Shown one piece after another: positions 3,081 through 16,158 of a stretch of 64,000 nucleotides of DNA. Numbering within the stretch: position 1 is the stretch's first letter; every line of letters begins with the position of its first letter. The notes beneath the pieces were generated by a model. That model was not told the origin of the DNA. It ran no database searches and worked only from the letters and a program-made list of their open reading frames with translations. The position numbers were made by a program, and so were the translations under genes. This DNA is from an uncultured Candidatus Saccharibacteria bacterium (lineage in GTDB: Bacteria > Patescibacteriota > Minisyncoccia > Phycocordibacterales > UBA9973): positions 10,015 to 74,014 of the forward strand of contig CAZBZO010000005.1 in NCBI GenBank assembly GCA_964496425.1, in the 5' to 3' direction.

Positions 3081-4385
3081 ATGAAAAATACTCACACTGT
3101 TGATGTTGTGCTCGGACTCCAATGGGGCGATGAAGGTAAGGGGAAAATCGTCGATGCGCTTGCTCGTGACTACGATCTCGTGGCGCGCTTTCAAGGTGGG
3201 CCGAACGCTGGGCATACGCTCGAATTTGATGGCAAACACATCGTCCTCCACACTATTCCGTCTGGAGTATTTGTTGGTGCGACCAACTTGATTGGTGCCA
3301 ATGTCGTGCTTGATCCAATAAGTTTTGTAGAGGAGCTTGCCCAGGTGGAGCCGCTCGTCAAAAATATTCGCGAGGTTCTCCTCATTGCCCGTGAAGTCAA
3401 CATTATTATTCCGACCCATAAAATTCTCGACAAGGCTGCAGAAGTGGCTAAAGGTGAAGCTAAAATCGGCACAACTTTGCGAGGAATCGGGCCGGCATAT
3501 ATGGATAAAACCGGCCGCAATGGACTTCGCATTGGATACATCAGCGCGCCTGACTTTGCTACTCGATACGAAATGCTTAAAACCAAACACTTGAAACTAC
3601 TCGAAGCTCAAGGGTTTCTTGTGGATGCGGAGCTACTTTCAAAAAACGAAAAGGAATTTTTTGAAGCTATTGAAGTCATTAAAACATTTACACTTGCTAA
3701 CTGCTCCACGTATATGAATACTGCAATTGATGCTGGTAAGAAAATTTTAGGTGAAGGAGCACAGGGAAGCATGCTTGATATCGATCATGGATTTGTCTAT
3801 CCATTTGTGACCTCGTCGAGCACGACGTCGGCTGGCATGTGTACTGGGCTTGGTATTGCACCGCAGAAAATCGGTCGTGTGATCGGCATTACCAAAGCCT
3901 ACTGCACTCGCGTGGGTTCTGGTCCGTTTCCAACAAAGCTCACTGATGAATGGGGAGAAAAATTAAGACAGATTGGCCATGAATTTGGTGCGACGACCGG
4001 CCGACCGCGCGACTGCGGCTGGATCGATCTGCCTGTCCTCAAAAAAGCAATTTTACTCTCTGGTGTGACCGAAATCGCTATTACCAAGCTCGACATTTTA
4101 GATACTTTTGAAGAGATCAAGGTTTGCACGGCCTACTCTATAGATGGAGTGGAAACGACCGAGCTGCCGTTTGACCCAAATCTTTCTGTTATGACGCCAG
4201 TTTATAAAACCTTCCCTGGTTGGCAGACGTCGATTAAAGCGGCGACATCGTATGAGGCATTGCCAGAGAATTTAAAAACATTTGTTTCGTATCTTGAAAC
4301 CGAGCTTGGTGTACGGGCGACGTATCTTTCTACGGGCCCTGAGCGGGAAGCGACCATTATTCGCAATCGTACTGAAGTGGCATGA
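3081..4385 (+). CDS. purA: Adenylosuccinate synthetase
   Basis: GDEGKGK P-loop, GPNAGHT, and the TTGRPR..GW motif. Start chosen at MKNTHTV (3081) for a 434-aa protein; the track ORF starts at 2982. Confidence 0.92.
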   Translation: MKNTHTVDVVLGLQWGDEGKGKIVDALARDYDLVARFQGGPNAGHTLEFDGKHIVLHTIPSGVFVGATNLIGANVVLDPISFVEELAQVEPLVKNIREVLLIAREVNIIIPTHKILDKAAEVAKGEAKIGTTLRGIGPAYMDKTGRNGLRIGYISAPDFATRYEMLKTKHLKLLEAQGFLVDAELLSKNEKEFFEAIEVIKTFTLANCSTYMNTAIDAGKKILGEGAQGSMLDIDHGFVYPFVTSSSTTSAGMCTGLGIAPQKIGRVIGITKAYCTRVGSGPFPTKLTDEWGEKLRQIGHEFGATTGRPRDCGWIDLPVLKKAILLSGVTEIAITKLDILDTFEEIKVCTAYSIDGVETTELPFDPNLSVMTPVYKTFPGWQTSIKAATSYEALPENLKTFVSYLETELGVRATYLSTGPEREATIIRNRTEVA

Positions 4386-7351
4386 TTTCGAGAATTGATA
4401 TTCTAACCATCGGTTCCGACGGACGAGCGCTCGTCAAAGAGAAATTATTTTCCAATGTTGTAGGGCGACCCTTAGCTGTCACTATACTCAACTCATATCT
4501 TATCGAAGCTTCACTTTCTGATTCAGCCCTTTCAAAAGTAGCCATACTACTCACCAACCCAGTCCTTGAAGAGGCATACGTAAATAAAAATCCGCTTAAA
4601 AATAAATTTTCATATGCGATTGAAATCGGATTTTTGCCAGGCGTAACAGATAATGTCGCAGCGACAGTCCGCGAGACGATCGAGGACGCTTTGAAGAGAA
4701 AATTTAAACCAAGTGAAGGAGTGTATACAAGCACAGTTTTTATTATTTCAGGTGTATTTTCGCAAGAGGATGTAGAAAAAATCGCTAGTGCACTCTACAA
4801 TCCACTGATTGAGCGTGCCAGTATTATTCCATATCAAGAATTTTCCAAAACAAAAAAGTTTCCTACTCGCGTGGCAAAAGTGAAGCTTCATGATACTGCG
4901 AGTGCTGACCGTGTCGATCTTGACGTGTCTGATGCTGAGCTTGCTCGTATCGGCAAAGAAGGCGTCGCCAACGCCGACGGGACGCGCCGCGGACCATTGG
5001 CGCTCGGACTTTCTGAAATGAAAGTAATCCAAGAATATTTTCGTGCCGCAAAACGTAAACCGACTGATATCGAACTTGAATCTTTAGCACAGACGTGGAG
5101 CGAGCACTGCAAGCATACGATTTTCGCTTCACCACTGGATGAAATAAAAGACGGACTGTATAAAACATATATCAAAGGTGCGACCAATCAAATCCGAAAG
5201 AAAAAAGGGAAGAGTGATTTCTGTGTCTCAGTATTTTCTGACAATTCAGGCGCCATAGTTTTCGATGAAAAATATTTGATCACGCACAAAGTCGAAACTC
5301 ACAATTCGCCATCAGCGCTCGATCCCTTTGGTGGAGCGATCACGGGTATTGTTGGGGTCAATCGCGATGCTATGGGATTTGGTCTGGGTGCTAAGCCGAT
5401 CGCTAACACGTATGGATTTTGTTTAGCTCTGCCTGCCGATACTCGGCCACTGTATCGCGATAGTGCTCTCACGCAAAAAATGTTGCCACCCGCGCGGATC
5501 ATGGAAGGTGTGATCAAAGGCATCAATGCTGGTGGCAATTGCTCCGGGATTCCGACACCTGACGGATTTGTATTTTTCGATGAACGTTATCGCGGCAAAC
5601 CCCTTGTATTTGCCGGTACCGTCGGACTGATTCCCCGAAAAATTCATGGTAAACGCTCAGATATCAAAAAAGCTAAAGCAGGAGACTTGATTGTAATGGT
5701 CGGGGGACGAGTCGGTGCCGATGGTATTCACGGCGCTACATTTTCTTCGGTGGAAATGGACTCTGGTTCTCCCGCTACCGCAGTCCAGATCGGAGACCCG
5801 ATCACTGAGAAAAAATTCTCCGATGCCTTAGTCAAAGAAGCTCGCGATCAAGAGCTCTACCATAGTATTACCGACAACGGTGCTGGCGGACTTTCTTGTT
5901 CGGTTGCGGAAATGGCAAAAGAATGTGGGGGAGCGATTGTTGATCTTGAAAAAGTACCACTGAAATATCCAGGGCTTGCGCCATGGGAGATTTGGATCTC
6001 CGAATCCCAAGAGCGCATGACGCTTGCGGTGCCGAAAAGTAAATGGAAAGCATTTAAGGCTCTCATGGATCGCCGTGGCGTGGAAGCAACAGCGATTGGC
6101 ACGTTTACTGCTTCCGGTTGTTGTGTTGTTAGCTATCAAAAAAAGAAAATCATGGATATTCCGCTCTCATTTCTGCATGACGGATTGCCTTTAAGGCATC
6201 TCGTGAGTAAAGAAGAGAAGAAGATACACCCTGAGCCGCCAAAGCAAAACAATTCATCACTTACTACTGTGCTTACTCATATGTTGGCGCGACCAAATAT
6301 TGCGAGTCGGGCATTTATAACCACGCAATACGATCATGAAGTTCAATCAGGATCGGTTGTGAAGCCATTGGTCGGAGCTGGTAGCGTCGATAACGACGGA
6401 GCAGTGATAAAGCCAGTACTTTCTTCTCGTCGTGGCGCCGTGCTTTCTCATGGCATAGTGCCGGTGTATTCGGACATCGATACCTATCATATGGGAGCAG
6501 CTGCTATTGATACAGCAGTGCGTAATGCCATCGCTCTTGGTGCGTCACTCGACTACCTCGCCATCCTCGACAATACTTGCTGGTGCAGTTCGGATGACCC
6601 TGTGCGGCTCTACGAGCTTAAACAGGCTATCAAAGCGTGCTATGACTATGCACTCATCTACGGCACGCCATATATCTCCGGCAAAGACAGTATGTTCAAC
6701 GATTTTAAAGGTTACGACGAAAAAGGTAGCCCGATAAAAATTTCTATTCCGCCAACACTTTTGATTTCATCTATCGGCGTGATAAAAGATATTCGAAAAG
6801 CTATTACCCTTGATCCAAAAATGCCGGGTGACTTAGTGTATCTCCTTGGCGAAACACATGACGAACTTGGCGCCTCGGAATACTTTGCGTTTATTTCAGA
6901 TATGGCTAAGAAAAAATATGTTGGCAACAATATTCCGGAAGTTGATGGTGTACGAAACAAAAAACTCTATCAATCATTTGAAAAAGCTGGAGCAAGTGGG
7001 CTAATTGCTTCAGCCATATCCGTCGGTCGGGGAGGGCTCGGTGTAGTGCTTTCAAAAATGGCGATTGCAAGTGGGCTAGGACTTGAAATTAGCCTGAAAG
7101 GTATCCCAGGCAAAGTATCGCAGAACGATTTTGCACTTTTCTCCGAATCCCAAGGTCGCATCGTGGTGACGATTGATCCGAAAAATAAGAAGAAATTTGA
7201 AGCACATTTCAAAGGCCAAGCGATTAAACTCATTGGGAAAGTACGAGCGGATAAAAAAGTGACGATAGCAGGCCTCTCAGGACGAAATACGGTTGATACT
7301 ACGGTTTCCGCACTCGATCAGGCATACAAAAAAACTTTCAAGAATTACTAA
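4382..7351 (+). CDS. purL: Phosphoribosylformylglycinamidine synthase subunit PurL with a ~190-aa N-terminal extension (possibly a fused PurS-like domain)
   Basis: 989 aa. The SEHCKH motif and AIR-synthase-related domains are present. ATGA overlap with the purA stop. No separate purS ORF in the cluster. Confidence 0.9.
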   Translation: MISRIDILTIGSDGRALVKEKLFSNVVGRPLAVTILNSYLIEASLSDSALSKVAILLTNPVLEEAYVNKNPLKNKFSYAIEIGFLPGVTDNVAATVRETIEDALKRKFKPSEGVYTSTVFIISGVFSQEDVEKIASALYNPLIERASIIPYQEFSKTKKFPTRVAKVKLHDTASADRVDLDVSDAELARIGKEGVANADGTRRGPLALGLSEMKVIQEYFRAAKRKPTDIELESLAQTWSEHCKHTIFASPLDEIKDGLYKTYIKGATNQIRKKKGKSDFCVSVFSDNSGAIVFDEKYLITHKVETHNSPSALDPFGGAITGIVGVNRDAMGFGLGAKPIANTYGFCLALPADTRPLYRDSALTQKMLPPARIMEGVIKGINAGGNCSGIPTPDGFVFFDERYRGKPLVFAGTVGLIPRKIHGKRSDIKKAKAGDLIVMVGGRVGADGIHGATFSSVEMDSGSPATAVQIGDPITEKKFSDALVKEARDQELYHSITDNGAGGLSCSVAEMAKECGGAIVDLEKVPLKYPGLAPWEIWISESQERMTLAVPKSKWKAFKALMDRRGVEATAIGTFTASGCCVVSYQKKKIMDIPLSFLHDGLPLRHLVSKEEKKIHPEPPKQNNSSLTTVLTHMLARPNIASRAFITTQYDHEVQSGSVVKPLVGAGSVDNDGAVIKPVLSSRRGAVLSHGIVPVYSDIDTYHMGAAAIDTAVRNAIALGASLDYLAILDNTCWCSSDDPVRLYELKQAIKACYDYALIYGTPYISGKDSMFNDFKGYDEKGSPIKISIPPTLLISSIGVIKDIRKAITLDPKMPGDLVYLLGETHDELGASEYFAFISDMAKKKYVGNNIPEVDGVRNKKLYQSFEKAGASGLIASAISVGRGGLGVVLSKMAIASGLGLEISLKGIPGKVSQNDFALFSESQGRIVVTIDPKNKKKFEAHFKGQAIKLIGKVRADKKVTIAGLSGRNTVDTTVSALDQAYKKTFKNY

Positions 7352-7352
7352 T

Positions 7353-9104
7353 ATGGAAACTCGTACCTGTCAAAACTGCAAATCTGATTTTTCAGTTGAA
7401 TCAGATGATTTTGCATTTTATGAAAAAATCAAAGTTCCTCCGCCGACGTTTTGTCTGCTGTGTAGATATAAGCGACGTATTATTTGGCGCAATGTCCGAC
7501 ATTTATTTCGAGGTATAGATGCAATAACAAAAAAAGAGATATTTACGGGGATTCCTCCCGAAGCCAATCATACTTTATACGAGCAGTCATATTGGAATAG
7601 TGATAATTGGGATCCTTTGGATTATGGAAAGGAATATGATTTTTCTACTCCTTTTTTCCAACAATTGCACGATCTGTATTATTCGGTTCCGTGTCCAGCA
7701 AAATCTATGCAGCGATGTATCAATTCGGATTATTCGAATCAATGCGACGATATGAAGAACACGTATCTTTGTTTTAACGCTACTTTTATGGAAGATAGCG
7801 CATATTGTTGCAATGGAAGTGTTTTGAAAAACTGTTTTGATCTCACAAGTTGTTATAACAGTGAATTTTGTTACGACAATGTCCGGGTGGACAAAAGTTA
7901 CCACACAATAGGATCTATTACGTGCGAGAGTTGTGTTGATGTATGGTTCTCAAAAAATTGCATAGGATGTACTGATTGTTTTGGGTGTGTAAATCAACGA
8001 AATGCGACATATCGAATTTACAACAAACAATATTCCAAAGAAGATTATTTCGAAAAAATTAAATCTTTGAATCTTAATACGTGGTTAGGTTTTTCTGCTG
8101 CGCAAAAACAAGCTGAAGATTTTTGGAATACATTTCCCCTTAAATACATGCTAGGATTTCGGAACCAGGATGTATTAGGTGAAGATATTAAAGATAGTAA
8201 GAATGTAAAATACTCTTATATTGTCCAACGGGGCGAGAATTTAAAATACGTTCAAGATGTCCCATTTGGTGGTGCCAGCAATTCATATGATTATACATCG
8301 TGGGGAGTGAGCGCATCTCAACTCTATGAATGTATGGTTTGTGGTGAACAAGTGGATAAGCTGAAATTTTGTTTTGAATGTTGGCCAGGTTGTCAAGAAC
8401 TTGAATACTGTATCCATGTACGTCGTTCAAAAAATTGTTTTGGCTGCGTCGGGGTGAAAGATAAACAATATTGCATTTTCAATGTTCAGTATTCTAAAGA
8501 AGAATATGAAAAGCTCGTTCTAAAAATAAAAGAGCATATGGATCAAATGCCATATAAAGATAAAAGAGGTAACACATATACATATGGTGAATTTTTCCCG
8601 AGTGAATTTTCTCCTTTTTCCTACAATCAAACACTTCTCAATGATCAATTTCCATCTACTAAGAAGGGTACTGAAGAAGAAGGATTTCTCTGGCGCGATA
8701 CTCTCGGTCGGGAGTATGAAACCACAATGAAAGCAGGAGATCTTCCAGAGAGAATTTTAGACGTAGGAGAGGATATCACCAAAGAACTTATTGCTTGTGT
8801 TTCTTGTAGTAAGGCGTATCGGATTATTGCAAATGAATTTCAATTTCTTAAAAATCTTTCCTTGCCACTTCCACGAATGTGTGTAGACTGTAGGTTCGCA
8901 CGGCGTCAAACGTTTATGGTGCCGCCGGTTTTGCATGAAGAAACATGTCACTGCGGCGGGTCTCGCTCGATAAATCAAGAATACCAAAATACCGAAATAC
9001 ATTTTCATGGCGCCGGCAAATGTCCCAATACTTTCCAAACAGCGTATGATCCAGAGAAAGAGATAATTTATTGCGAAGATTGTTATAAGAAAGAAGTATT
9101 TTAA
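7353..9104 (+). CDS. Cysteine-rich protein, paralogue A (N- and C-terminal CxxC zinc-ribbon-like motifs; internal duplicated CFGCVG..KQYCIFN.QYSKEEYE repeat); function unknown
   Basis: 583 aa from METRTCQNCK, more than 40 Cys in CxxC knuckles. Start 1 nt after the purL stop. Homologous along its length to the 10878-12590 ORF. Confidence 0.8.
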   Translation: METRTCQNCKSDFSVESDDFAFYEKIKVPPPTFCLLCRYKRRIIWRNVRHLFRGIDAITKKEIFTGIPPEANHTLYEQSYWNSDNWDPLDYGKEYDFSTPFFQQLHDLYYSVPCPAKSMQRCINSDYSNQCDDMKNTYLCFNATFMEDSAYCCNGSVLKNCFDLTSCYNSEFCYDNVRVDKSYHTIGSITCESCVDVWFSKNCIGCTDCFGCVNQRNATYRIYNKQYSKEDYFEKIKSLNLNTWLGFSAAQKQAEDFWNTFPLKYMLGFRNQDVLGEDIKDSKNVKYSYIVQRGENLKYVQDVPFGGASNSYDYTSWGVSASQLYECMVCGEQVDKLKFCFECWPGCQELEYCIHVRRSKNCFGCVGVKDKQYCIFNVQYSKEEYEKLVLKIKEHMDQMPYKDKRGNTYTYGEFFPSEFSPFSYNQTLLNDQFPSTKKGTEEEGFLWRDTLGREYETTMKAGDLPERILDVGEDITKELIACVSCSKAYRIIANEFQFLKNLSLPLPRMCVDCRFARRQTFMVPPVLHEETCHCGGSRSINQEYQNTEIHFHGAGKCPNTFQTAYDPEKEIIYCEDCYKKEVF

Positions 9105-9105
9105 T

Positions 9106-10881
9106 ATGGAATCTAAAGTAGAAACAACCAAAACAGAACATTTTTCTTGGCTCGATGTGCCGAAGGCGATTTGGTATTTTCTTGATAAAGATAAAGCGAA
9201 ATTTGGCGTTTTCTTTTTTATTTTACTCGGTATTTTTTTCTACGATCTCGTACCTGTATATATTGTAGGAAAGATCGTTGATTTTTTTACTGCGTATACA
9301 CCAGGGCAATCTCTCAATTTGTTCTACTTCTATTCCTTTTTTGTTGGCTCTACGTGGATACTTGCCGCAATAATTCGCAATTATGCAAAAAATAGAATAA
9401 TGAGAATAGGTCAACATGCTCGATCAAATGCACGGATATGGGGGTTTGAGCGTCTTACAGAATTTTCACTTGAATGGCACAACAAGGAAAATACTGGCAA
9501 TAAACTTCAGCGAATTTTCACGGGCTCAGATGCGATTTACGAATTGATGAAAATAATACGAAGCAGATTGTTAAAAATTGCTTCAAGTATCGTGGGGGTA
9601 TTGGCGGTTTTCGTTTTTACAGATATAAAATTTGTCGTGCTAGTTTTTATATATAGTGCTGTATATTTATATGCTGAGTTTATTATCAGTAAGAGAATTT
9701 TTAGATTGAGTAATGAATTTAATACTCTAAATCAGTCAGCAAGTGGAACATACATGGAAAGTGCAGGCAACATACTCTCAGTGAAAGCGCTCGGTGGAGA
9801 GAGCGGTATCGTCAATCGTGTAATGAATAGAGAAATTCTTTCGAGGAACATTTCTATAAAAAAACTCAATGCGAACAGTTTTAAATGGCGAGTCTTAAAC
9901 GTTATTAGCGGCGCTGCGATCGGAGTATTCTTATTAATGACAGGATTTTCTGTACTTTCATCAGCGTTGACTTTAGGAATGGTTCTTGTGTTTTACACTT
10001 ATTTCTCAAAACTCGGTGAATCATTGGCAGATATGAGCGATTTACATTCTGACATGCTAGACGTGCGGTCAAATTTGGCACATATGATGCCGATATTTCG
10101 TGAGACGGAATTTATTAAAACCGGTAATGAAAGTTTCCCAGAATATTGGAATGCGATCAAGATAAATAACATTTCGATGGATTATGGATCAGGCCAGCAT
10201 GGACTCAAGGATTTTAGTTTAGAAATCGCACGTAATTCTAAAGTGGGCATTGCTGGGACCTCCGGCTCGGGTAAGTCGACGCTTGCGAAAATTATTTTGG
10301 GACTCTATAAAATCAAATCGGGTGGAATTCATGTAGGTGAGAGGGATTATTATGATATTTCCCACAACGACATGCTCGATCATATTACTGTTGTCCTCCA
10401 AGAAACCGAGCTTTTTAATCTTTCACTTCGCGAAAACATTACTATGATGCGGACCGAAAATAGCGAGCTTTTAAATCGTGCTGTAGAAATCTCCGAGCTC
10501 GGCGCGGTGATCGACCGTTTGCCTGAAGGTCTCGATGCCAAAATCGGGGAGAAGGGCTACATGCTCTCCGGCGGCGAACGCCAACGCCTCGGTATTGCTC
10601 GAGCGATTTATAAAAATGCCCCGATTATTCTCCTTGACGAAGCCACCTCAGCGCTTGATAGTGAGACTGAAGGCAAGATCATGGCAAAGCTTTTGGGTGA
10701 GTATGGCAAGGATAAGACATTTGTTATTATTGCTCACAGGCTAGGTACATTACGCTACACGGACCGCATTGCCGTGGTAGCCGATGGCAGCGTGGTGGAA
10801 GAGGGGAATTACACCGAACTCATGAGTAAACCGAAGTCATATTTTTCTCGGATGAATCAAGAGAAAAGTCAGAATATATGA
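9106..10881 (+). CDS. ABC transporter, fused permease/ATPase (type-I exporter half-transporter)
   Basis: N-terminal 6-TM domain, Walker A GTSGSGKST, signature LSGGERQRLGIARA, Walker B ILLDEATSALD. No C39 peptidase domain. Confidence 0.9.
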   Translation: MESKVETTKTEHFSWLDVPKAIWYFLDKDKAKFGVFFFILLGIFFYDLVPVYIVGKIVDFFTAYTPGQSLNLFYFYSFFVGSTWILAAIIRNYAKNRIMRIGQHARSNARIWGFERLTEFSLEWHNKENTGNKLQRIFTGSDAIYELMKIIRSRLLKIASSIVGVLAVFVFTDIKFVVLVFIYSAVYLYAEFIISKRIFRLSNEFNTLNQSASGTYMESAGNILSVKALGGESGIVNRVMNREILSRNISIKKLNANSFKWRVLNVISGAAIGVFLLMTGFSVLSSALTLGMVLVFYTYFSKLGESLADMSDLHSDMLDVRSNLAHMMPIFRETEFIKTGNESFPEYWNAIKINNISMDYGSGQHGLKDFSLEIARNSKVGIAGTSGSGKSTLAKIILGLYKIKSGGIHVGERDYYDISHNDMLDHITVVLQETELFNLSLRENITMMRTENSELLNRAVEISELGAVIDRLPEGLDAKIGEKGYMLSGGERQRLGIARAIYKNAPIILLDEATSALDSETEGKIMAKLLGEYGKDKTFVIIAHRLGTLRYTDRIAVVADGSVVEEGNYTELMSKPKSYFSRMNQEKSQNI

Positions 10882-12590
10882 AGAAAGAAACGAAACAATG
10901 TAAGAATTGCGCAAAAGATTTCACTATAGAGTCGGATGACTTTGATTTTTATGAAAAGGTAAAGGTTCCGCCGCCAACGTTTTGTCCGGAGTGTCGCATG
11001 ATCCGCAGATTTCAGCTTCGCAACGAACGCACCTGGCATCGTCGTGTCTGTGATGCGACTGGCAAACCTCTGCTTTCTATGTTTGCATCTGATGTGCCAT
11101 ACAAAGTCTATGAGCTCAATTATTGGAAGAGTGATGCCTGGGATCCGATGGAATATGGGCACGTCTATGACTCGTCGCGCTCCTTTTTTGCCCAATTCGA
11201 CGAGCTCATGCGTGCGGTGCCGCATGCCAACTTGATTCAGAAAAACAACGCCAATAGTGACTATTCAAATGCGACGCTCAATGCCAAGAATTGTTACTAT
11301 TGTTCAAGTCTTGATACGGGGGAGGATTGCAGTTATTGCTTTACTGGCAACATTCGTATAAAAAATTGCCTTGACCTGCATCAATCTATCGATGACGAAT
11401 TCTCGTATGAGCTTGTGGATTGCCTCAAATGCAACCGGCTTTTATTTGGACAAAATTGCGAAGGATGCGTAGATTCGATGTTTTTGTATGATTGTCGCAA
11501 CTGCACCAATTGTTTCGGTTGTGTGGGACTTCGCAATAAACAGTACTGTATATGGAATGAGCAGCATTCGCGTGAGGACTATCTTGAGCAAATGAAACAG
11601 CTGCGAGCGGGAAGCTATCAGACTCTACTCGCGGCTAAAGAAAAATTTGAAGAACTGAAGCTCCGGGTGCCGCGAAAATTTGCTGTCATTCAAAAAGCTG
11701 AGAATGTTTCCGGTGACGATATTTTAAATGCTCGCAACTGCCACCAATGCTTCGTCGTGCGAAATAGCGTAGAGAACTTAAAGTACTGCTATCGTGTCTG
11801 GGAAAACTCTAAAGATATTTGGGATGGGTTTGTGGCCTGGCGTGGATCAGAAATGATGTACGAAGTAGTGAGCTGTACTGGTCAGCGTATTTATTTCTCC
11901 GCCTATATTTGGGGCGGCAATGACATTTTTTATTCGTACAATTGTTTCGATTGCAACAATATCTTTGGCTGTGTCGGTCTCCGAAGCAAATCGTACTGCA
12001 TTTTTAATACCCAATACTCGAAAGAAGAGTATGAAGTATTGATAGCGCAAATCATTGAAAAAATGAAAATAGATGGTGAGTACGGAGAATTTTTCCCTGC
12101 AAGCATTTCGCCCTTCGCGTACAATGAAACAGTAGCACAGGATTATTTTCCCAAAATCAAAGATGATGCACAGGCGAGTGGGTATCGATGGCGAGACGCG
12201 GAAGAAAAAAACTACAATGTTACGATGAAAAGCGAGGCGATCCCAGACGGTATCGCCGAAGCAAGCGACGATATTTTAAAAGAAGTGATCGAATGCGCAC
12301 ACCAAGGAGTATGTAGCGAACAATGCGCGACGGCGTTTCGTCTTACCTCTGACGAGCTCGTTTTTTACCGTACCATGAAACTTCCACTCCCACGACTCTG
12401 TCCGTCATGTCGCCACTATGGTCGGGTCAAGCTCAAAAATCCGCTTCGGCTTTGGAATCGCACCTGTACGTGCGAGCGGGATACTCATACTCACTCGGGA
12501 CCTTGTTCCAATACATTTCAAACGCCGTATTCACCGGAGCGCTCGGAGATGATATATTGCGAAGAATGTTACAATGCGGAAATAGTTTAA
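10878..12590 (+). CDS. Cysteine-rich protein, paralogue B (same architecture as 7353-9104)
   Basis: 570 aa. MKKETKQCKNCAKDFTIESDDFDFYEKVKVPPPTFCPEC matches the paralogue A N-terminus. 4-nt overlap with the ABC gene stop. Confidence 0.8.
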   Translation: MKKETKQCKNCAKDFTIESDDFDFYEKVKVPPPTFCPECRMIRRFQLRNERTWHRRVCDATGKPLLSMFASDVPYKVYELNYWKSDAWDPMEYGHVYDSSRSFFAQFDELMRAVPHANLIQKNNANSDYSNATLNAKNCYYCSSLDTGEDCSYCFTGNIRIKNCLDLHQSIDDEFSYELVDCLKCNRLLFGQNCEGCVDSMFLYDCRNCTNCFGCVGLRNKQYCIWNEQHSREDYLEQMKQLRAGSYQTLLAAKEKFEELKLRVPRKFAVIQKAENVSGDDILNARNCHQCFVVRNSVENLKYCYRVWENSKDIWDGFVAWRGSEMMYEVVSCTGQRIYFSAYIWGGNDIFYSYNCFDCNNIFGCVGLRSKSYCIFNTQYSKEEYEVLIAQIIEKMKIDGEYGEFFPASISPFAYNETVAQDYFPKIKDDAQASGYRWRDAEEKNYNVTMKSEAIPDGIAEASDDILKEVIECAHQGVCSEQCATAFRLTSDELVFYRTMKLPLPRLCPSCRHYGRVKLKNPLRLWNRTCTCERDTHTHSGPCSNTFQTPYSPERSEMIYCEECYNAEIV

Positions 12591-12605
12591 ATAGTAAGTA
12601 GAAAA

Positions 12606-13403
12606 ATGCAAACAAAAGGCAAAAAGCAACGAATAAAACCAAAAGTCATCGTCATGTCTGGCTACGGGCTCAACTGCGAAGAAGAGACCAAGTACGCTTT
12701 CGAATGGGCTGGCGCGGTGGCTGACATCGTCCATATCAATGACCTGATCGACGGACGCAAAAAGCTCAAGGGCTATCAGATCTTAGCGGTACCAGGTGGA
12801 TTTTCGTACGGTGACGACACAGGGTCTGGCAAAGCCTATGCCAATAAAATGAAAAATCACCTCATGGATGATCTAGAGAATTTTATTGCTCGCGATACGC
12901 TCATGATCGGTATATGCAATGGCTTTCAAGTGCTCACCTCAGCTGGCTTTCTACCTGGCGCGCTGACCTACAATGAAAGTGCGCGATATATCGACCGTTG
13001 GGTAGATCTCAAAATCGAAAATCAAAGAAGTCCCTGGCTCTCTGGCATTACCACGCTTTCCGTACCTATTGCTCATGGTGAAGGTAAATATATTTTTGAT
13101 GCAAAGATAAAAAAAGAACTTGAGCGTGATAATAGTATCGCACTTCGCTATACCAAAGGCGACATGTGTAAGTATCAAAATTTACAAGCCAATCCAAATG
13201 GTGCTATGGAAGACATAGCAGGCGTGACGGCAAAAAATGGTAGAATACTCGGCATGATGCCGCACCCAGAACGAGCCATGTTTTCTCATCAATTGCCAAA
13301 CTTTTCGCTTGAAAAAGAAAAAGCCAAGCGTGCCGGAAAAGAAATTCCCGAAGAAGGACCAGGACTCCAGATTTTTAGAAACGCTATAAAATATTTTCAA
13401 TAA
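12606..13403 (+). CDS. purQ: Phosphoribosylformylglycinamidine synthase glutaminase subunit
   Basis: Class-I glutamine amidotransferase features: GICNGFQ nucleophile elbow and a PHPER-containing C-terminus. Confidence 0.88.
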   Translation: MQTKGKKQRIKPKVIVMSGYGLNCEEETKYAFEWAGAVADIVHINDLIDGRKKLKGYQILAVPGGFSYGDDTGSGKAYANKMKNHLMDDLENFIARDTLMIGICNGFQVLTSAGFLPGALTYNESARYIDRWVDLKIENQRSPWLSGITTLSVPIAHGEGKYIFDAKIKKELERDNSIALRYTKGDMCKYQNLQANPNGAMEDIAGVTAKNGRILGMMPHPERAMFSHQLPNFSLEKEKAKRAGKEIPEEGPGLQIFRNAIKYFQ

Positions 13404-13406
13404 TAT

Positions 13407-14846
13407 ATGCACGACCTTACAGAAAAATGCGGTATTTTCGGCATCTATGGTCGCGACATGGATGTGTCACGCTTGGCCTTCTTCGGCCTCTTTGCGCTCC
13501 AGCATCGCGGACAAGAAAGTTCGGGTATGTCGGTCGGCGATGGCGAAAAAATAATTTCCTATCGTGGTGCAGGACTTGTGTCAGCAGTGTATAACGAGCA
13601 AAACCTAAAACGCCTGCAAGGGCATATTGCCATCGGCCACAATCGTTACTCGACCTCTGGTGCATCGGTCCTCTGTCATTCTCAGCCGATCGCGATCGGA
13701 GAAACATTTGATTTTCAAAATGAGATGCGTGAGGGAAGTATCGGCGGCTTAGTCGCTTTTGCTCACAATGGCAACTTGCCATCAGTCACGGCGCTTACAG
13801 AGTTTTTGAAAGACAAAGGTGTTTTGCTTGATGAACGTTCGGACTCTGAACTTATGGCCGAAGCGATTTTGTATTATGTAAAAAATGGCAAAAGCCTGCC
13901 GGAAGCTATGCGCGAAGCCTATCCGCTTTTTACCGGAGCATTTTCGCTGGTGGTAGCAACCAAAGATACTTTAGTCGCTGTGCGTGATAGCTGTGGTATT
14001 CGTCCGCTTTCGCTTGGGAAACTCAACGGCGGTCATATCGTAGCATCGGAGACCTGCGCATTTAAAACGATTGGTGCGGAGTTTGTACGTGATATTTTGC
14101 CAGGTGAAATGGTAGTGATTGACGATACAGGCGTACAGTCGATCCAGATCGTTCCGCCAAACCCTAAGCTTGATATTTTTGAATTTGTCTATTTCGCCCG
14201 AGCGGACAGTACAATTGACGGACAGTTGGTCTATGAAGTCCGTAAGCGCTGTGGGGAAGAGTTGGCACGAGAATATCATATTGAGGCTGATATCGTGATC
14301 CCAATCCCAGAGACGGCTATACCGGTCGCTATCGGCTACGCCAATGTCTCCAAAATCCCGATTGAAATGGCACTGGTGAAAAACCGTTACGTGCATCGAA
14401 CCTTTATCGAGCCGGAACAACACTCACGCGATCTCGGCGTGAAGCTCAAACTCGTGCCCTTGCCTGAAATGATCACTGACAAGCGTGTGGTGGTCATGGA
14501 CGACTCTATTGTGCGTGGTACAACTTCACGACAGATCGTGGCAATGCTCTTTGAAGCTGGAGCCAAAGAAGTACATTTTCTGATCAGCTCGCCGCCGGTC
14601 CGCTTCCCAGACTTTTATGGTATCAATACGCCTGATCAAAAAGATCTGATCGCTTCGCAAAAAACCGTGGAAGAAATCCGCGAATACCTCGGCGCCACCT
14701 CGCTTGGCTATTTGTCACTCGACGGCCTCGTGAAATCCACGGGTCTCCCGAAAGATCACTTTTCAATGTCGTGCTTTACCGGTGAGTATCCGATCGATCT
14801 CCACGAGCGCGCACACGATTTCTCGCACGATGTGCCAAAAAATTAA
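13407..14846 (+). CDS. purF: Amidophosphoribosyltransferase
   Basis: Ntn nucleophile at MHDLTEKCGIFGI. C-terminal phosphoribosyltransferase motif VVMDDSIVRGTT. Confidence 0.93.
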   Translation: MHDLTEKCGIFGIYGRDMDVSRLAFFGLFALQHRGQESSGMSVGDGEKIISYRGAGLVSAVYNEQNLKRLQGHIAIGHNRYSTSGASVLCHSQPIAIGETFDFQNEMREGSIGGLVAFAHNGNLPSVTALTEFLKDKGVLLDERSDSELMAEAILYYVKNGKSLPEAMREAYPLFTGAFSLVVATKDTLVAVRDSCGIRPLSLGKLNGGHIVASETCAFKTIGAEFVRDILPGEMVVIDDTGVQSIQIVPPNPKLDIFEFVYFARADSTIDGQLVYEVRKRCGEELAREYHIEADIVIPIPETAIPVAIGYANVSKIPIEMALVKNRYVHRTFIEPEQHSRDLGVKLKLVPLPEMITDKRVVVMDDSIVRGTTSRQIVAMLFEAGAKEVHFLISSPPVRFPDFYGINTPDQKDLIASQKTVEEIREYLGATSLGYLSLDGLVKSTGLPKDHFSMSCFTGEYPIDLHERAHDFSHDVPKN

Positions 14847-15447: not shown

Positions 15448-16158
15448 TTAATGCTCGTGGGGAATAAGTATCAAAATTGCCGAGAGAAGAATAGCTCCAA
15501 CGACAAATCCCCAAATGGTATTTTGGGTCCATTTCGTATGGCGAATGTCGGTACTCACTTTCCAAGAAATGATTCCGGCTGAAAGCGCAATGAGAATACT
15601 TTCAAGTGCCGCTCCATTTTTCAGGAAAAGTGCTAAGAGTACGCTTAAAGAAACAAAAAATGAAATGAAAAGTGCACGCTTTGGCTTGATACCGCTATCC
15701 ACCAGGAGTACTTGCTGTCCGCTTTGTTGGACCATTTGATGACCGATGATGCCGGCAAGGGAGGTCAGTCCCACTCCGATACTAAAACCAAATCCCGAAA
15801 TGATAGCGATACCGTCGACGATATTGTGGAGGAAATCAGAAAGAAGGATCCGCCAGGTACTGGCTTTGGTGTGATGATGTTTTCCCTCGGCACTTTCGTG
15901 GTGGTGGTGGAATTCTTTGAAATACACGCCGATCAAAATACTTATGATGAGCCCGGCAAGCGCCCAGAGGGAAGCAGGAAGTACGCCACGTTGCTCAATG
16001 GCTTCCCGGAGAAGTAAAATAACGAGCGTCGCATAGACACCGAGACCAAAGCCGCGGACTGCGCTTTTTTGGAAAAATTCTCGATTGCGAGGCAAAAGCA
16101 ACACCAAAGCCATTGGTACCAGTGCCGCAGCAAGTAAATATAAAATAATATGTGTCAC
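15448..16158 (-). CDS. zupT: ZIP-family metal (zinc) transporter
   Basis: Eight-TM topology, His-rich loop HHHHESAEGKHHH, and conserved HNIVDGIAI and GHQ motifs of the ZIP family. Confidence 0.8.
   Translation of the reverse strand: MTHIILYLLAAALVPMALVLLLPRNREFFQKSAVRGFGLGVYATLVILLLREAIEQRGVLPASLWALAGLIISILIGVYFKEFHHHHESAEGKHHHTKASTWRILLSDFLHNIVDGIAIISGFGFSIGVGLTSLAGIIGHQMVQQSGQQVLLVDSGIKPKRALFISFFVSLSVLLALFLKNGAALESILIALSAGIISWKVSTDIRHTKWTQNTIWGFVVGAILLSAILILIPHEH

What the first reader, a model, noticed from the sequence alone, without database searches (positions are those of the whole stretch)
7954..8520. Internal tandem duplication inside each Cys-rich protein
Each paralogue contains two copies of a ~30-aa unit: ..NC.GC..CFGCVG(L/V)(R/K).KQYCI(F/W)N.QYSKE(E/D)Y(E/F).. 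Paralogue A has them at about 7954-8062 and 8431-8520. Paralogue B has them at about 11492-11590 and 11941-12036. Conservation of the unit within and between paralogues suggests a repeated metal-binding module under selection rather than low complexity.
Basis: seen in the sequence. Interest (0 to 1): 0.55.

Follow-up and report, generated by a model that had tools for sequence, protein, structure and literature searches.

The report
Duplicated beta-solenoid cap in CPR proteins
The repeated ~30-residue motif is real: it is the closing turn and capping helix of a ~140-residue narrow beta-solenoid module present twice in each protein, and the proteins belong to a very large, unnamed, zinc-finger-bracketed family found only in Patescibacteria (CPR), whose function is unknown.

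Summary
All four units are in frame at the stated coordinates. They align formally: profile-profile E 1.6e-23, and single-sequence shuffles give z = 10 for A and z = 29 for B.

The repeat is larger than reported. The whole ~140-aa module is duplicated (A residues 103-240 and 252-392; E 2.5e-38). The modules still align with the unit removed (E 6e-17). A second duplication joins the N-terminal zinc-finger unit to the C-terminal one (E 1.6e-17).

AlphaFold models are confident (pLDDT 93 and 92, pTM 0.91 and 0.92). Each module is a beta-solenoid that runs in 12-residue coils where it is regular. Every third residue faces inward, and a helix ends each module. Sequence alone supports this: 21 of 22 Cys-prone columns in module 1 share one phase mod 3.

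The unit is the last coils plus the cap. Only one Cys (the FGC Cys) is equivalent in both copies, so "repeated metal-binding module" is only partly supported.

The family has at least 5,241 clusters at 50% identity. Every locus fetched came from Patescibacteria-type bins. It has no Pfam or NCBIfam model and no solved relative.

Elsewhere it forms arrays of 2-9 ancient paralogues, often flanked by soluble VirD4/HerA-like ATPases. Function is inferred only.

The parts
7353..9104 (+). Paralogue A, 583 aa. Soluble, Cys-rich (37 Cys) protein of an unnamed Patescibacteria family.
   Evidence: ORF. The gene call starts at ATG 7353. No Pfam or NCBIfam hit above cut-off. More than 7,000 homologues. AF2 pLDDT 93.1, pTM 0.91. 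Maximum KD19 hydropathy 0.89, so no membrane segment.
7353..7601 (+). A, N-terminal zinc-finger unit (aa 1-83). It has a CxxC knuckle (C6, C9), a helix, and CxxC (C34, C37) at the start of an Arg-rich helix (R38, R41, R42). The second finger is degenerate.
   Evidence: Invariant C6, C9, C34, C37, R38, R41, R42. Secondary structure from DSSP. Homologous to aa 477-580: hhalign E 1.6e-17 over 82 columns. Shuffle test z = 12.3.
7659..8072 (+). A, solenoid module 1 (aa 103-240).
   Evidence: hhalign of module 1 vs module 2: E 2.5e-38 over 136 columns. DSSP period of 12 residues, 'EEEE--E--E--', at aa 183-222, then helix 229-238. 21 of 22 Cys-prone columns share one phase mod 3, and the entropy period is about 11.8.
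7950..8072 (+). A, unit 1 (aa 200-240). It holds the last two coils, including C203-x2-C206-x2-C209-x2-C212, then N224 and cap helix 229-238.
8106..8528 (+). A, solenoid module 2 (aa 252-392).
   Evidence: Strands at aa 262-327 and helix 382-398.
8409..8528 (+). A, unit 2 (aa 353-392). It holds the last coils (C353, C362, C365, C374), N377 and the start of cap helix 382-398.
8529..8777 (+). A, conserved acidic linker region (aa 393-475), with the motifs YGEFFPxExSPFAYNET and GYxWRD.
   Evidence: Invariant M396, Y411, G412, E413, F414, P416, W447. Net charge -7.
8778..9101 (+). A, second zinc-finger unit (aa 476-583). It has C482/C485 and C510/C513 with R514 and R518, then C532-x-C534, C557 and C574/C577 (the C-terminal finger).
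   Evidence: Invariant cysteines. hhalign to the N-terminal unit. Sub-threshold treble-clef hits: PF13451 in 13 of 37 members, plus PF23477 and TIGR04272.
9106..10881 (+). MsbA-type ABC exporter half-transporter (591 aa) between the two paralogues. Among the 83 loci examined, it is adjacent to a family member only here and in the 71%-identical relative.
   Evidence: Pfam ABC_membrane and ABC_tran. NCBIfam MsbA-like. Orthologue adjacent only in L007.
10878..12590 (+). Paralogue B, 570 aa, 37 Cys.
   Evidence: AF2 pLDDT 92.0, pTM 0.92, same layout as A.
11190..11606 (+). B, solenoid module 1 (aa ~105-243).
   Evidence: Local self-alignment of B aa 106-241 with 256-398, z = 29.2. Cap helix 232-242.
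11640..12053 (+). B, solenoid module 2 (aa ~255-392).
   Evidence: Cap helix 382-399.

Best explanation
**What the unit is.** Each ~30-40-residue unit is the C-terminal end of a ~140-residue, very narrow beta-solenoid module. It comprises the last one to two 12-residue coils and the start of the helix that caps the open end. The module was duplicated in tandem long ago. It sits between two homologous zinc-finger units in a soluble ~580-aa protein.

**How the coils are built.** Every third residue points into the core. The core is a ladder of small residues (Cys, Ser, Val, Leu, Ala). This is the same in/out pattern as the 12-residue coils of beetle antifreeze protein.

**Why the unit is conserved.** I think it terminates and seals the solenoid. 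The FGC turn, the Asn at the last corner, and the QYSKEEY helix start with its invariant Tyr would do this. The conserved cysteines would be core residues. In unit 1 the four cysteines of one coil (CxxCxxCxxC) may also hold a metal ion.

**What is shown and what is inferred.** Shown: the duplications, the 3- and 12-residue periodicities, the confident solenoid-plus-helix models, the family's size, its restriction to Patescibacteria-type bins among the loci fetched, and its gene neighbourhoods. Inferred: the capping role and any metal in the core.

**Function, inferred weakly (about 0.2-0.3).** The proteins may be rigid scaffolds or adaptors tipped with Arg-rich zinc fingers. Distinct paralogues would act together, and in most lineages with soluble VirD4/HerA-type ATPases, on a nucleic-acid or protein substrate.
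For: **Repeat statistics.**

**Models.** pLDDT 93.1 and pTM 0.91 for A. pLDDT 92.0 and pTM 0.92 for B. In A the strand pattern repeats every 12 residues from aa 183 to 222. Helices follow at 229-238 and 382-398 in A, and at 232-242 and 382-399 in B.

**Independent sequence evidence.**
- 97.6% of the cysteine frequency summed over the columns of module 1 lies in one phase mod 3.
- That phase is C 30%, S 21%, L 11%.
- The next phase is rich in N, D and G, as turns are.
- Column entropy peaks at a period of about 11.8 residues.

**Beetle antifreeze geometry.** TmAFP has 12-residue coils with inward residues at positions 2, 5, 8 and 11 (PMC8038014).

**Conservation of the unit.** It is carried mostly by non-Cys residues.

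**Zinc fingers.** The CxxC pairs are invariant. The related CxxC-x17-CxxC domain binds zinc experimentally (PMC12704099).

**Context.**
- Same-strand arrays of 2-9 copies, made of ancient paralogues. Best identity within a locus has a median of 43%. Best identity to another genome has a median of 57%.
- VirD4/TraG/TrwB-type ATPases occur in 32 of 80 loci, and 26 of them are directly adjacent to a family member.
- 14 of the 43 ATPases carry a CxxC-x17-CxxC finger resembling the family's C-terminal finger.
Against: - No coordinates could be inspected. The capping contacts and the Cys geometry are read from secondary structure and periodicity only.
- Module 2 is less regular than module 1 in the models, with pLDDT 75-89 around aa 310-370.
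- The window itself has no VirD4-like gene. Here the pair flanks an ABC exporter inside a purine operon. The ATPase link is therefore not universal.
- The similarity between the ATPase finger and the family finger is individually non-significant (E 0.2-4).
- There are no experimental data on any member.
Confidence: 0.65

Rival explanations
1. Each unit is an autonomous metal-binding (Zn or Fe) module, and it is conserved because four cysteines hold a metal ion.
For: - Unit 1 has C203-x2-C206-x2-C209-x2-C212, conserved at 79-99%, with all four on the inward lattice of one coil.
- In unit 2, 153 of 230 sequences keep exactly four lattice cysteines.
- Loss of C356 goes with gain of C353 and C362 (Fisher p 1e-16 to 1e-23, not corrected for phylogeny).
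- Metal-related neighbours recur: CutA1 in 7 loci, ArsR-like regulators inside arrays, and a ZIP transporter in the window.
Against: - Only one cysteine is equivalent in the two units.
- 54 of 230 sequences have three cysteines in unit 2.
- C191 and C203 are lost independently (9 sequences lack both, p = 0.45).
- Lattice cysteines are replaced by S, L, I, V or M.
- The most conserved positions of the unit are not cysteines.
- There is no ferredoxin, rubredoxin or metallothionein signature or Pfam hit.
Confidence: 0.25
2. The solenoids are disulfide-stapled, as in beetle antifreeze protein. The proteins would be exported through the adjacent ABC transporter, to act outside the cell as adhesins or surface proteins.
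For: - The 12-residue coil and Cys lattice resemble TmAFP, whose core is filled by disulfides between positions i and i+6.
- An ABC exporter lies between A and B, and its stop codon overlaps the start codon of B.
Against: - There is no signal peptide or hydrophobic segment.
- The invariant zinc fingers with Arg-rich helices are typical of intracellular proteins.
- The ABC gene is adjacent only in this lineage and its 71% relative, out of 83 loci.
- The lattice cysteines are not arranged as conserved i/i+6 pairs.
Confidence: 0.05
3. The clustered cysteines bind Fe-S clusters, and the proteins are redox or electron-transfer components.
For: The proteins carry many cysteines (mean 33 per protein). 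CPR bacteria are generally regarded as anaerobes (my own knowledge, not tested here). The CxxCxxCxxC motif superficially resembles the ferredoxin motif CxxCxxCxxxCP.
Against: - The spacing differs, and there is no conserved Pro.
- No Fer4 or other Fe-S Pfam hit appears in 37 members.
- By inference, the core of a 12-residue coil is too narrow for a cubane cluster.
- The cysteines vary among subfamilies.
Confidence: 0.05
4. The similarity is due to chance or to compositional bias in Cys-rich sequence.
For: None, beyond the Cys richness itself.
Against: Shuffle z-scores are 10-29, with 0 of 2000 shuffles reaching the observed score. Profile E-values reach 1e-23 to 1e-38, and control slices are negative.
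Confidence: 0.01

Closest known systems
Beetle hyperactive antifreeze protein (Tenebrio molitor TmAFP, PDB 1EZG): beta-helix with 12-residue coils
   Same: Both have 12 residues per coil. Both show the side-chain pattern out-in-out-out-in..., with an inward residue every third position. Both have a core of Cys, Ser and Ala rather than large hydrophobic residues (PMC8038014).
Curli subunit CsgA beta-solenoid (8c50, 8enq)
   Different: Curli is a secreted amyloid with about 19-23 residues per repeat and Gln/Asn ladders. Sequence identity is 12%, and it has no Cys lattice. The resemblance is at the level of the solenoid class only.
Left-handed beta-helix (hexapeptide-repeat) acyltransferases and gamma-carbonic anhydrases
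   Different: These proteins have 18-residue coils with the hexapeptide motif. No PF00132 hit was found in A, B or 35 relatives. They form trimeric enzymes with active sites between subunits.
CxxC-x17-CxxC / treble-clef zinc fingers (TIGR04272, PF23477 zf_Tbcl_2, PF13451 zf_Tbcl)
   Same: The C-terminal finger (C557...VYC574-x2-C577-Y) and the two CxxC-x24-CxxC units have a knuckle plus helix-start ligand arrangement. Weak hits were found: TIGR04272 E 0.005, PF23477 E 0.012, and PF13451 in 13 of 37 members. Methanosarcina proteins with this domain bind zinc (PMC12704099).
   Different: All hits are below the curated cut-offs. Here the fingers are terminal appendages of a 580-aa protein and carry conserved Arg-rich helices.
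Orphan VirD4-type coupling-protein homologues of Patescibacteria
   Same: These are the recurrent neighbours of the family. They are P-loop ATPases matching T4SS-DNA_transf, TraG-D_C and TrwB_AAD_bind above the cut-offs. [quoted passage not shown]
   Different: They are partners by gene neighbourhood, not relatives of A or B. Most lack an N-terminal membrane anchor. None is present in this window.

Membership tests
Internal tandem repeat (the claim itself) | The two segments align significantly better than chance in a formal test. | tested here: met
   hhalign E 1.6e-23 for the units and 2.5e-38 for the modules. Shuffle z-scores 10-29.
Beta-solenoid repeat proteins | Stacked coils of constant length with a periodic in/out pattern. 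| tested here: met
TmAFP-type disulfide-bonded antifreeze beta-helix | Conserved Cys pairs at i and i+6 in every 12-residue coil, a TxT ice-binding face, and secretion. | tested here: not met
   Lattice cysteines are irregular. There is no TCT motif and no signal peptide.
Hexapeptide-repeat left-handed beta-helix (PF00132) | The [LIV]-G-x4 hexapeptide motif, 18-residue coils, and a Pfam match. | tested here: not met
   No PF00132 hit in A, B or 35 relatives. The coil period is 12, not 18.
Pentapeptide-repeat proteins (PF00805) | The A(D/N)LXX pentapeptide, 20-residue coils, and a Pfam match. | tested here: not met
   No Pfam hit. The coil period is 12.
Zinc ribbon / treble-clef zinc finger | Two conserved CxxC pairs: the first on a beta-knuckle, the second at a helix N-terminus. 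| tested here: met
   Invariant C6/C9 and C34/C37, and invariant C482/C485 and C510/C513. DSSP shows a hairpin around the first pair and a helix starting at the second.
Zinc ribbon / treble-clef zinc finger | A match to a curated family model above its cut-off. | tested here: inconclusive
   PF13451, PF23477 and TIGR04272 hits are all below their cut-offs.
Zinc ribbon / treble-clef zinc finger | Bound zinc. | not testable with these tools
   This needs ICP-MS or a solved structure.
Ferredoxin-type 4Fe-4S proteins | The CxxCxxCxxxCP motif and a Fer4 Pfam match. | tested here: not met
   The motif here is CxxCxxCxxC without Pro. No Fer4 hit.
Known anti-phage defence or phage protein families | A match to PADLOC or PHROG models. 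| tested here: not met
   PADLOC gave no hit. PHROGs gave only one hit at E 0.008 to a family of unknown function.

The most novel reading that the evidence does not exclude
A and B belong to an undescribed protein superfamily seen here only in Patescibacteria-type genomes. It has a new domain combination: two antifreeze-like 12-residue Cys-lattice beta-solenoids bracketed by Arg-rich treble-clef zinc fingers. Its ancient paralogues would assemble as hetero-oligomers. Together with the orphan soluble VirD4/HerA-type ATPases that flank their arrays, they would form a lineage-specific machine. That would explain why Patescibacteria keep thousands of T4CP homologues away from any type IV secretion genes. 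The solenoid core may also contain a new kind of intra-coil Cys4 metal site.
Probability: 0.25. Interest if true: 0.75.

Novelty: new variant of a known kind. Interest (0 to 1): 0.55.

Why it matters
Patescibacteria genomes are generally reported to be small, about 0.6-1 Mb (my own knowledge; chromosome-scale contigs met here are 0.74-0.84 Mb). Several genomes here carry at least six 1.7-kb copies of this gene. That is on the order of 1% of the genome devoted to a family with no name, no model in Pfam or NCBIfam, and no solved relative.

Showing that the conspicuous Cys-rich repeat is the cap of a duplicated narrow solenoid gives the family a defined architecture. It also gives testable residues.

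The recurrent flanking by orphan VirD4-like ATPases offers a concrete lead. The function of those ATPases, which are widespread in Patescibacteria, is unknown and has been suggested to be exapted (PMC12102498).

Tried and rejected
- **Family libraries.** Pfam, NCBIfam, PADLOC and PHROGs scans of A and B gave nothing above the cut-offs.
- **Solved structures by sequence.** A profile search against PDB sequences gave nothing (best E 1.3).
- **Solved structures by fold.** Foldseek against the PDB gave no hit at E below 1e-3, with TM at most 0.2.
- **Viral structures.** Foldseek against BFVD gave only generic solenoids and about 40-residue zinc-ribbon matches.
- **AlphaFold database.** The afdb50 library was unavailable.
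- **BLAST self-comparison.** It shows no off-diagonal hit for A or B alone. The duplication needed cross-paralogue, segment-wise or profile comparison.
- **Further copies.** A search for more copies in the window found none.
- **VirD4-like gene in the window.** None was found.
- **Ligand compensation between stacked C191 and C203.** None was found (p = 0.45). The compensation seen in unit 2 follows subfamilies, so it is not independent evidence.
- **Literature.** Searches for this family found no description.
- **ABC exporter as a conserved partner.** Rejected. It is adjacent only here and in one close relative.
- **Recent duplication or gene conversion.** Rejected from the DNA alignment.
- **Recent array amplification.** Rejected. 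No same-locus pair exceeds 58% identity.
Full report
**1. The observation**

The region holds two ORFs on the + strand. A is 7353-9104 (583 aa) and B is 10878-12590 (570 aa). An MsbA-type ABC exporter gene (9106-10881) lies between them.

A and B are 39% identical over their full length (E 2e-136). Each has 37 cysteines.

- A unit 1: NCIGCTDCFGCVNQRNATYRIYNKQYSKEDYFEKI.
- A unit 2: NCFGCVGVKDKQYCIFNVQYSKEEYEKLV.
- B unit 1: CRNCTNCFGCVGLRNKQYCIWNEQHSREDYLE.
- B unit 2: CFDCNNIFGCVGLRSKSYCIFNTQYSKEEYE.

**2. Formal repeat detection**

Plain BLAST self-comparison shows nothing off the diagonal. An off-register hit between A 1-232 and B 134-385 (E 6.5e-7) hinted at a longer duplication.

I split family alignments into column slices and compared them with hhalign.
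- Unit 1 vs unit 2: E 1.6e-23 over 40 columns (37 sequences).
- Whole modules, A 103-240 vs 252-392: E 6.4e-25 with 37 sequences and E 2.5e-38 with 135 sequences.
- The parts upstream of the units, with the units removed: E 1.4e-7 with 37 sequences and E 6e-17 with 135.
- Control slices (finger vs module) gave no hit.

Single-sequence shuffles gave z = 10.4 for the A halves, z = 29.2 for the B halves (a 145-residue alignment) and z = 13.6 for the A units. None of 2000 shuffles reached the observed score. The upstream part of A taken alone is not significant (z = -0.7).

The units are its best-conserved end.

A second, separate duplication links the N-terminal zinc-finger unit (aa 1-83) with aa 477-580 (E 1.6e-17; z = 12.3).

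The DNA of the four units is no more similar than the protein requires. The duplication is therefore old.

**3. What the module is**

AlphaFold2 with family alignments gave confident models. A has pLDDT 93.1 and pTM 0.91. B has pLDDT 92.0 and pTM 0.92.

The layout is:
- a zinc finger (hairpin with CxxC, a helix, then CxxC at the start of an Arg-rich helix);
- beta-rich module 1, ending in a helix (A 229-238);
- module 2, ending in a helix (A 382-398);
- a conserved acidic linker;
- the second finger unit and a C-terminal finger.

In A the strand pattern 'EEEE--E--E--' repeats with a period of exactly 12 residues from aa 183 to 222. The units are thus the last coils plus the start of the terminal helix.

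The sequence alone supports this, using 230 homologues:
- 21 of 22 columns of module 1 with at least 10% Cys fall in the same phase mod 3.
- That phase holds 97.6% of the cysteine frequency summed over the columns of module 1.
- That phase is C 30%, S 21%, L 11%, V 8%.
- The next phase is rich in N, D and G, as turns are.
- The third phase is rich in Y, V, E, F and K.
- Column entropy peaks at a period of about 11.8.

Module 2 shows the same lattice, with phase shifts at two indels.

This is the geometry described for beetle antifreeze protein. That protein has 12-residue coils, an out-in-out-out-in pattern, and inward residues C2, S5, C8 and A11 (PMC8038014).

**4. Metal binding**

The invariant CxxC pairs of the finger units (C6/9/34/37 and C482/485/510/513), plus C557 and C574/577, are classic zinc-finger ligands.

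Sub-threshold hits point to treble-clef and CxxC-x17-CxxC families. Members of the latter bind zinc experimentally (PMC12704099).

Inside the units the picture differs.
- Unit 1 keeps C194 (92%), C206, C209 and C212 (98-99%), and C191 and C203 (77-79%).
- Unit 2 keeps C356 (84%), C365 and C374 (100%), plus one of C353, C359 or C362. Of 230 sequences, 153 have four lattice cysteines and 54 have three.
- Only the FGC cysteine is equivalent in the two units.
- Lattice cysteines are replaced by S, L, I, V or M.
- C191 and C203 are lost independently.
- The strong anti-correlation of C356 with C353 and C362 follows subfamilies.

The CxxCxxCxxC coil of unit 1 places four cysteines on the four inward positions of one coil. 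This could be a Cys4 site, but I could not inspect coordinates.

The reading "repeated metal-binding module" is therefore only partly supported. The conservation shared by the two copies is structural: the FGC turn, the LRxK stretch, YxIFN, and the QYSKEEY helix start.

**5. The family**

Both proteins retrieve more than 7,000 homologues each. All are annotated "hypothetical". None of the homologues listed carries a precomputed Pfam domain, apart from one unrelated PF09606 entry.

A profile search of 1.84 billion representatives finds 5,241 clusters at 50% identity with E at or below 1e-3, and 2,281 with E at or below 1e-30. One member is UniProt A0A0G1W8Y6, "Uncharacterized protein".

In species-representative genomes there are at least 571 loci. 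By record title, nearly all of the 80 loci fetched are from Patescibacteria-type bins. Named groups include Nomura-, Jorgensen-, Staskawicz-, Lipton-, Giovannoni-, Sung- and Niyogibacteria and Paceibacteria. Many records are auto-labelled Saccharibacteria and two Gammaproteobacteria.

A and B have no hydrophobic segment.

**6. Context**

In the window the genes sit inside a purine operon. The order is guaB, purA, purL, A, ABC, B, purQ, purF, ZIP, purN, purD. Stop and start codons abut or overlap.

This context is not conserved. The ABC orthologue is adjacent only in the 71% relative L007.

Across 83 loci of about 14 kb, the family occurs once in 27 loci, twice in 23, three times in 21, four or five times in 14, and six or nine times in 2. 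The copies lie on the same strand with a single exception.

Several assemblies contribute two loci with six or more copies in total.

The arrays are ancient:
- Best identity to a same-locus copy has a median of 43% and a maximum of 58%.
- Best identity to a copy in another genome has a median of 57%.
- 97% of members are closer to a foreign copy than to their own neighbour.

The dominant neighbour is a P-loop ATPase that matches T4SS-DNA_transf, TraG-D_C and TrwB_AAD_bind above their cut-offs.
- It occurs in 32 of 80 loci. 26 of the 43 genes are directly adjacent to a family member, and 42 of the 43 lie on the same strand as the family genes.
- Often a long form (700-930 aa) lies upstream of the array and a short form (about 490-510 aa) lies downstream (L031, L056, L026, L030, L013).
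- Most lack a membrane anchor.
- 14 of 43 carry a CxxC-x17-CxxC finger, C..C.K.T.VPF.P..GRPVYCK.C. It aligns, individually without significance, to the family's C-terminal finger.

[quoted passage not shown] The authors raise exaptation (PMC12102498).

None of these ATPases is in this window.

Less frequent neighbours are CutA1 (7 loci), DnaJ and DnaK (8 loci each), ArsR-like regulators inside arrays, and CYTH.

**7. Mechanism**

Shown:
- two nested ancient duplications;
- a confident solenoid-plus-helix model, supported by independent 3- and 12-residue periodicities;
- conserved finger ligands;
- the family's size and its restriction to Patescibacteria-type bins among the loci fetched;
- arrays of ancient paralogues;
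- enrichment of VirD4/HerA-type ATPases next to those arrays.

Inferred:
- The units seal the solenoid ends, and this is why they are the best-conserved part.
- The lattice cysteines are core residues, with a possible Cys4 site in unit 1.
- The proteins are rigid scaffolds or adaptors whose Arg-rich fingers bind a nucleic acid or a partner.
- Different paralogues act together, usually with the flanking ATPases.

The functional part is weak (about 0.2-0.3).

**8. Verdict**

The finding is real and more extensive than reported. Its metal-binding interpretation is only partly supported.

The fold class (beta-solenoid) and the fingers are known kinds. The combination, the antifreeze-like 12-residue Cys lattice in a cytoplasmic bacterial protein, and the family itself appear undescribed.

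Noticed in passing
window 7353-9104 compared with 4382-7351 and 10878-14846: Gene A has GC 36.7% and GC3 29.5%. Its neighbours have GC 44-49% and GC3 40-50%. The ABC gene is intermediate at 40.0%. A may have been acquired recently from a lower-GC relative.
   Followed up: partly
window 4382-7351: The purL-like ORF is 989 aa (FGAR-AT_linker, AIRS and AIRS_C). That is longer than I recall for small PurL (about 740 aa, my own knowledge). The nature of the extra part was not examined.
   Followed up: no
window 7293-7353, 9104-9106, 10878-10881: The genes are tightly coupled. purL stops at 7351 and A starts at 7353. A stops at 9104 and the ABC gene starts at 9106. The ABC stop overlaps the B start (ATGA). 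The ORF list offers an earlier TTG start at 7293 that overlaps purL, but the gene calls use ATG 7353.
   Followed up: partly
window 15448-16158 (-): A ZIP-family metal transporter gene lies on the opposite strand inside the purine gene cluster.
   Followed up: no
L031 1815-4091 and 9710-11215; L056 3718-5964 and 9893-11407; L026; L030; L013: Soluble VirD4/TraG/HerA-type ATPases flank the family arrays, with a long form upstream and a short form downstream. The three long forms read out in full have a Pro-rich tail ending in a conserved EVPE[DE]VLRK[IV]LE. 14 of the 43 ATPases carry a CxxC-x17-CxxC finger.
   Followed up: partly
L031 7681-7962; L056 7727-7999; L013 9497-9808; L009 2144-2458: Small genes sit inside or beside the arrays. 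By eye, two are ArsR/SmtB-like HTH regulators (not scanned against any library). CutA1 divalent-ion tolerance proteins occur in 7 loci, 5 of them adjacent. This is a possible link to metal homeostasis.
   Followed up: partly
L004 6816-7973; L005 12312-12887: CYTH-domain genes lie directly upstream of family members in two unrelated genomes.
   Followed up: no
window A aa 135-175 vs 283-326 (nt ~7755-7877 and ~8199-8330): Outside the units, both modules share a ladder of conserved polar and aromatic residues. The pairs are KN with KN, E147-D-x-x-Y151 with E295-N-x-x-Y299, D163 with D313, and Y174-E175 with Y325-E326. This could be a conserved functional face.
   Followed up: no
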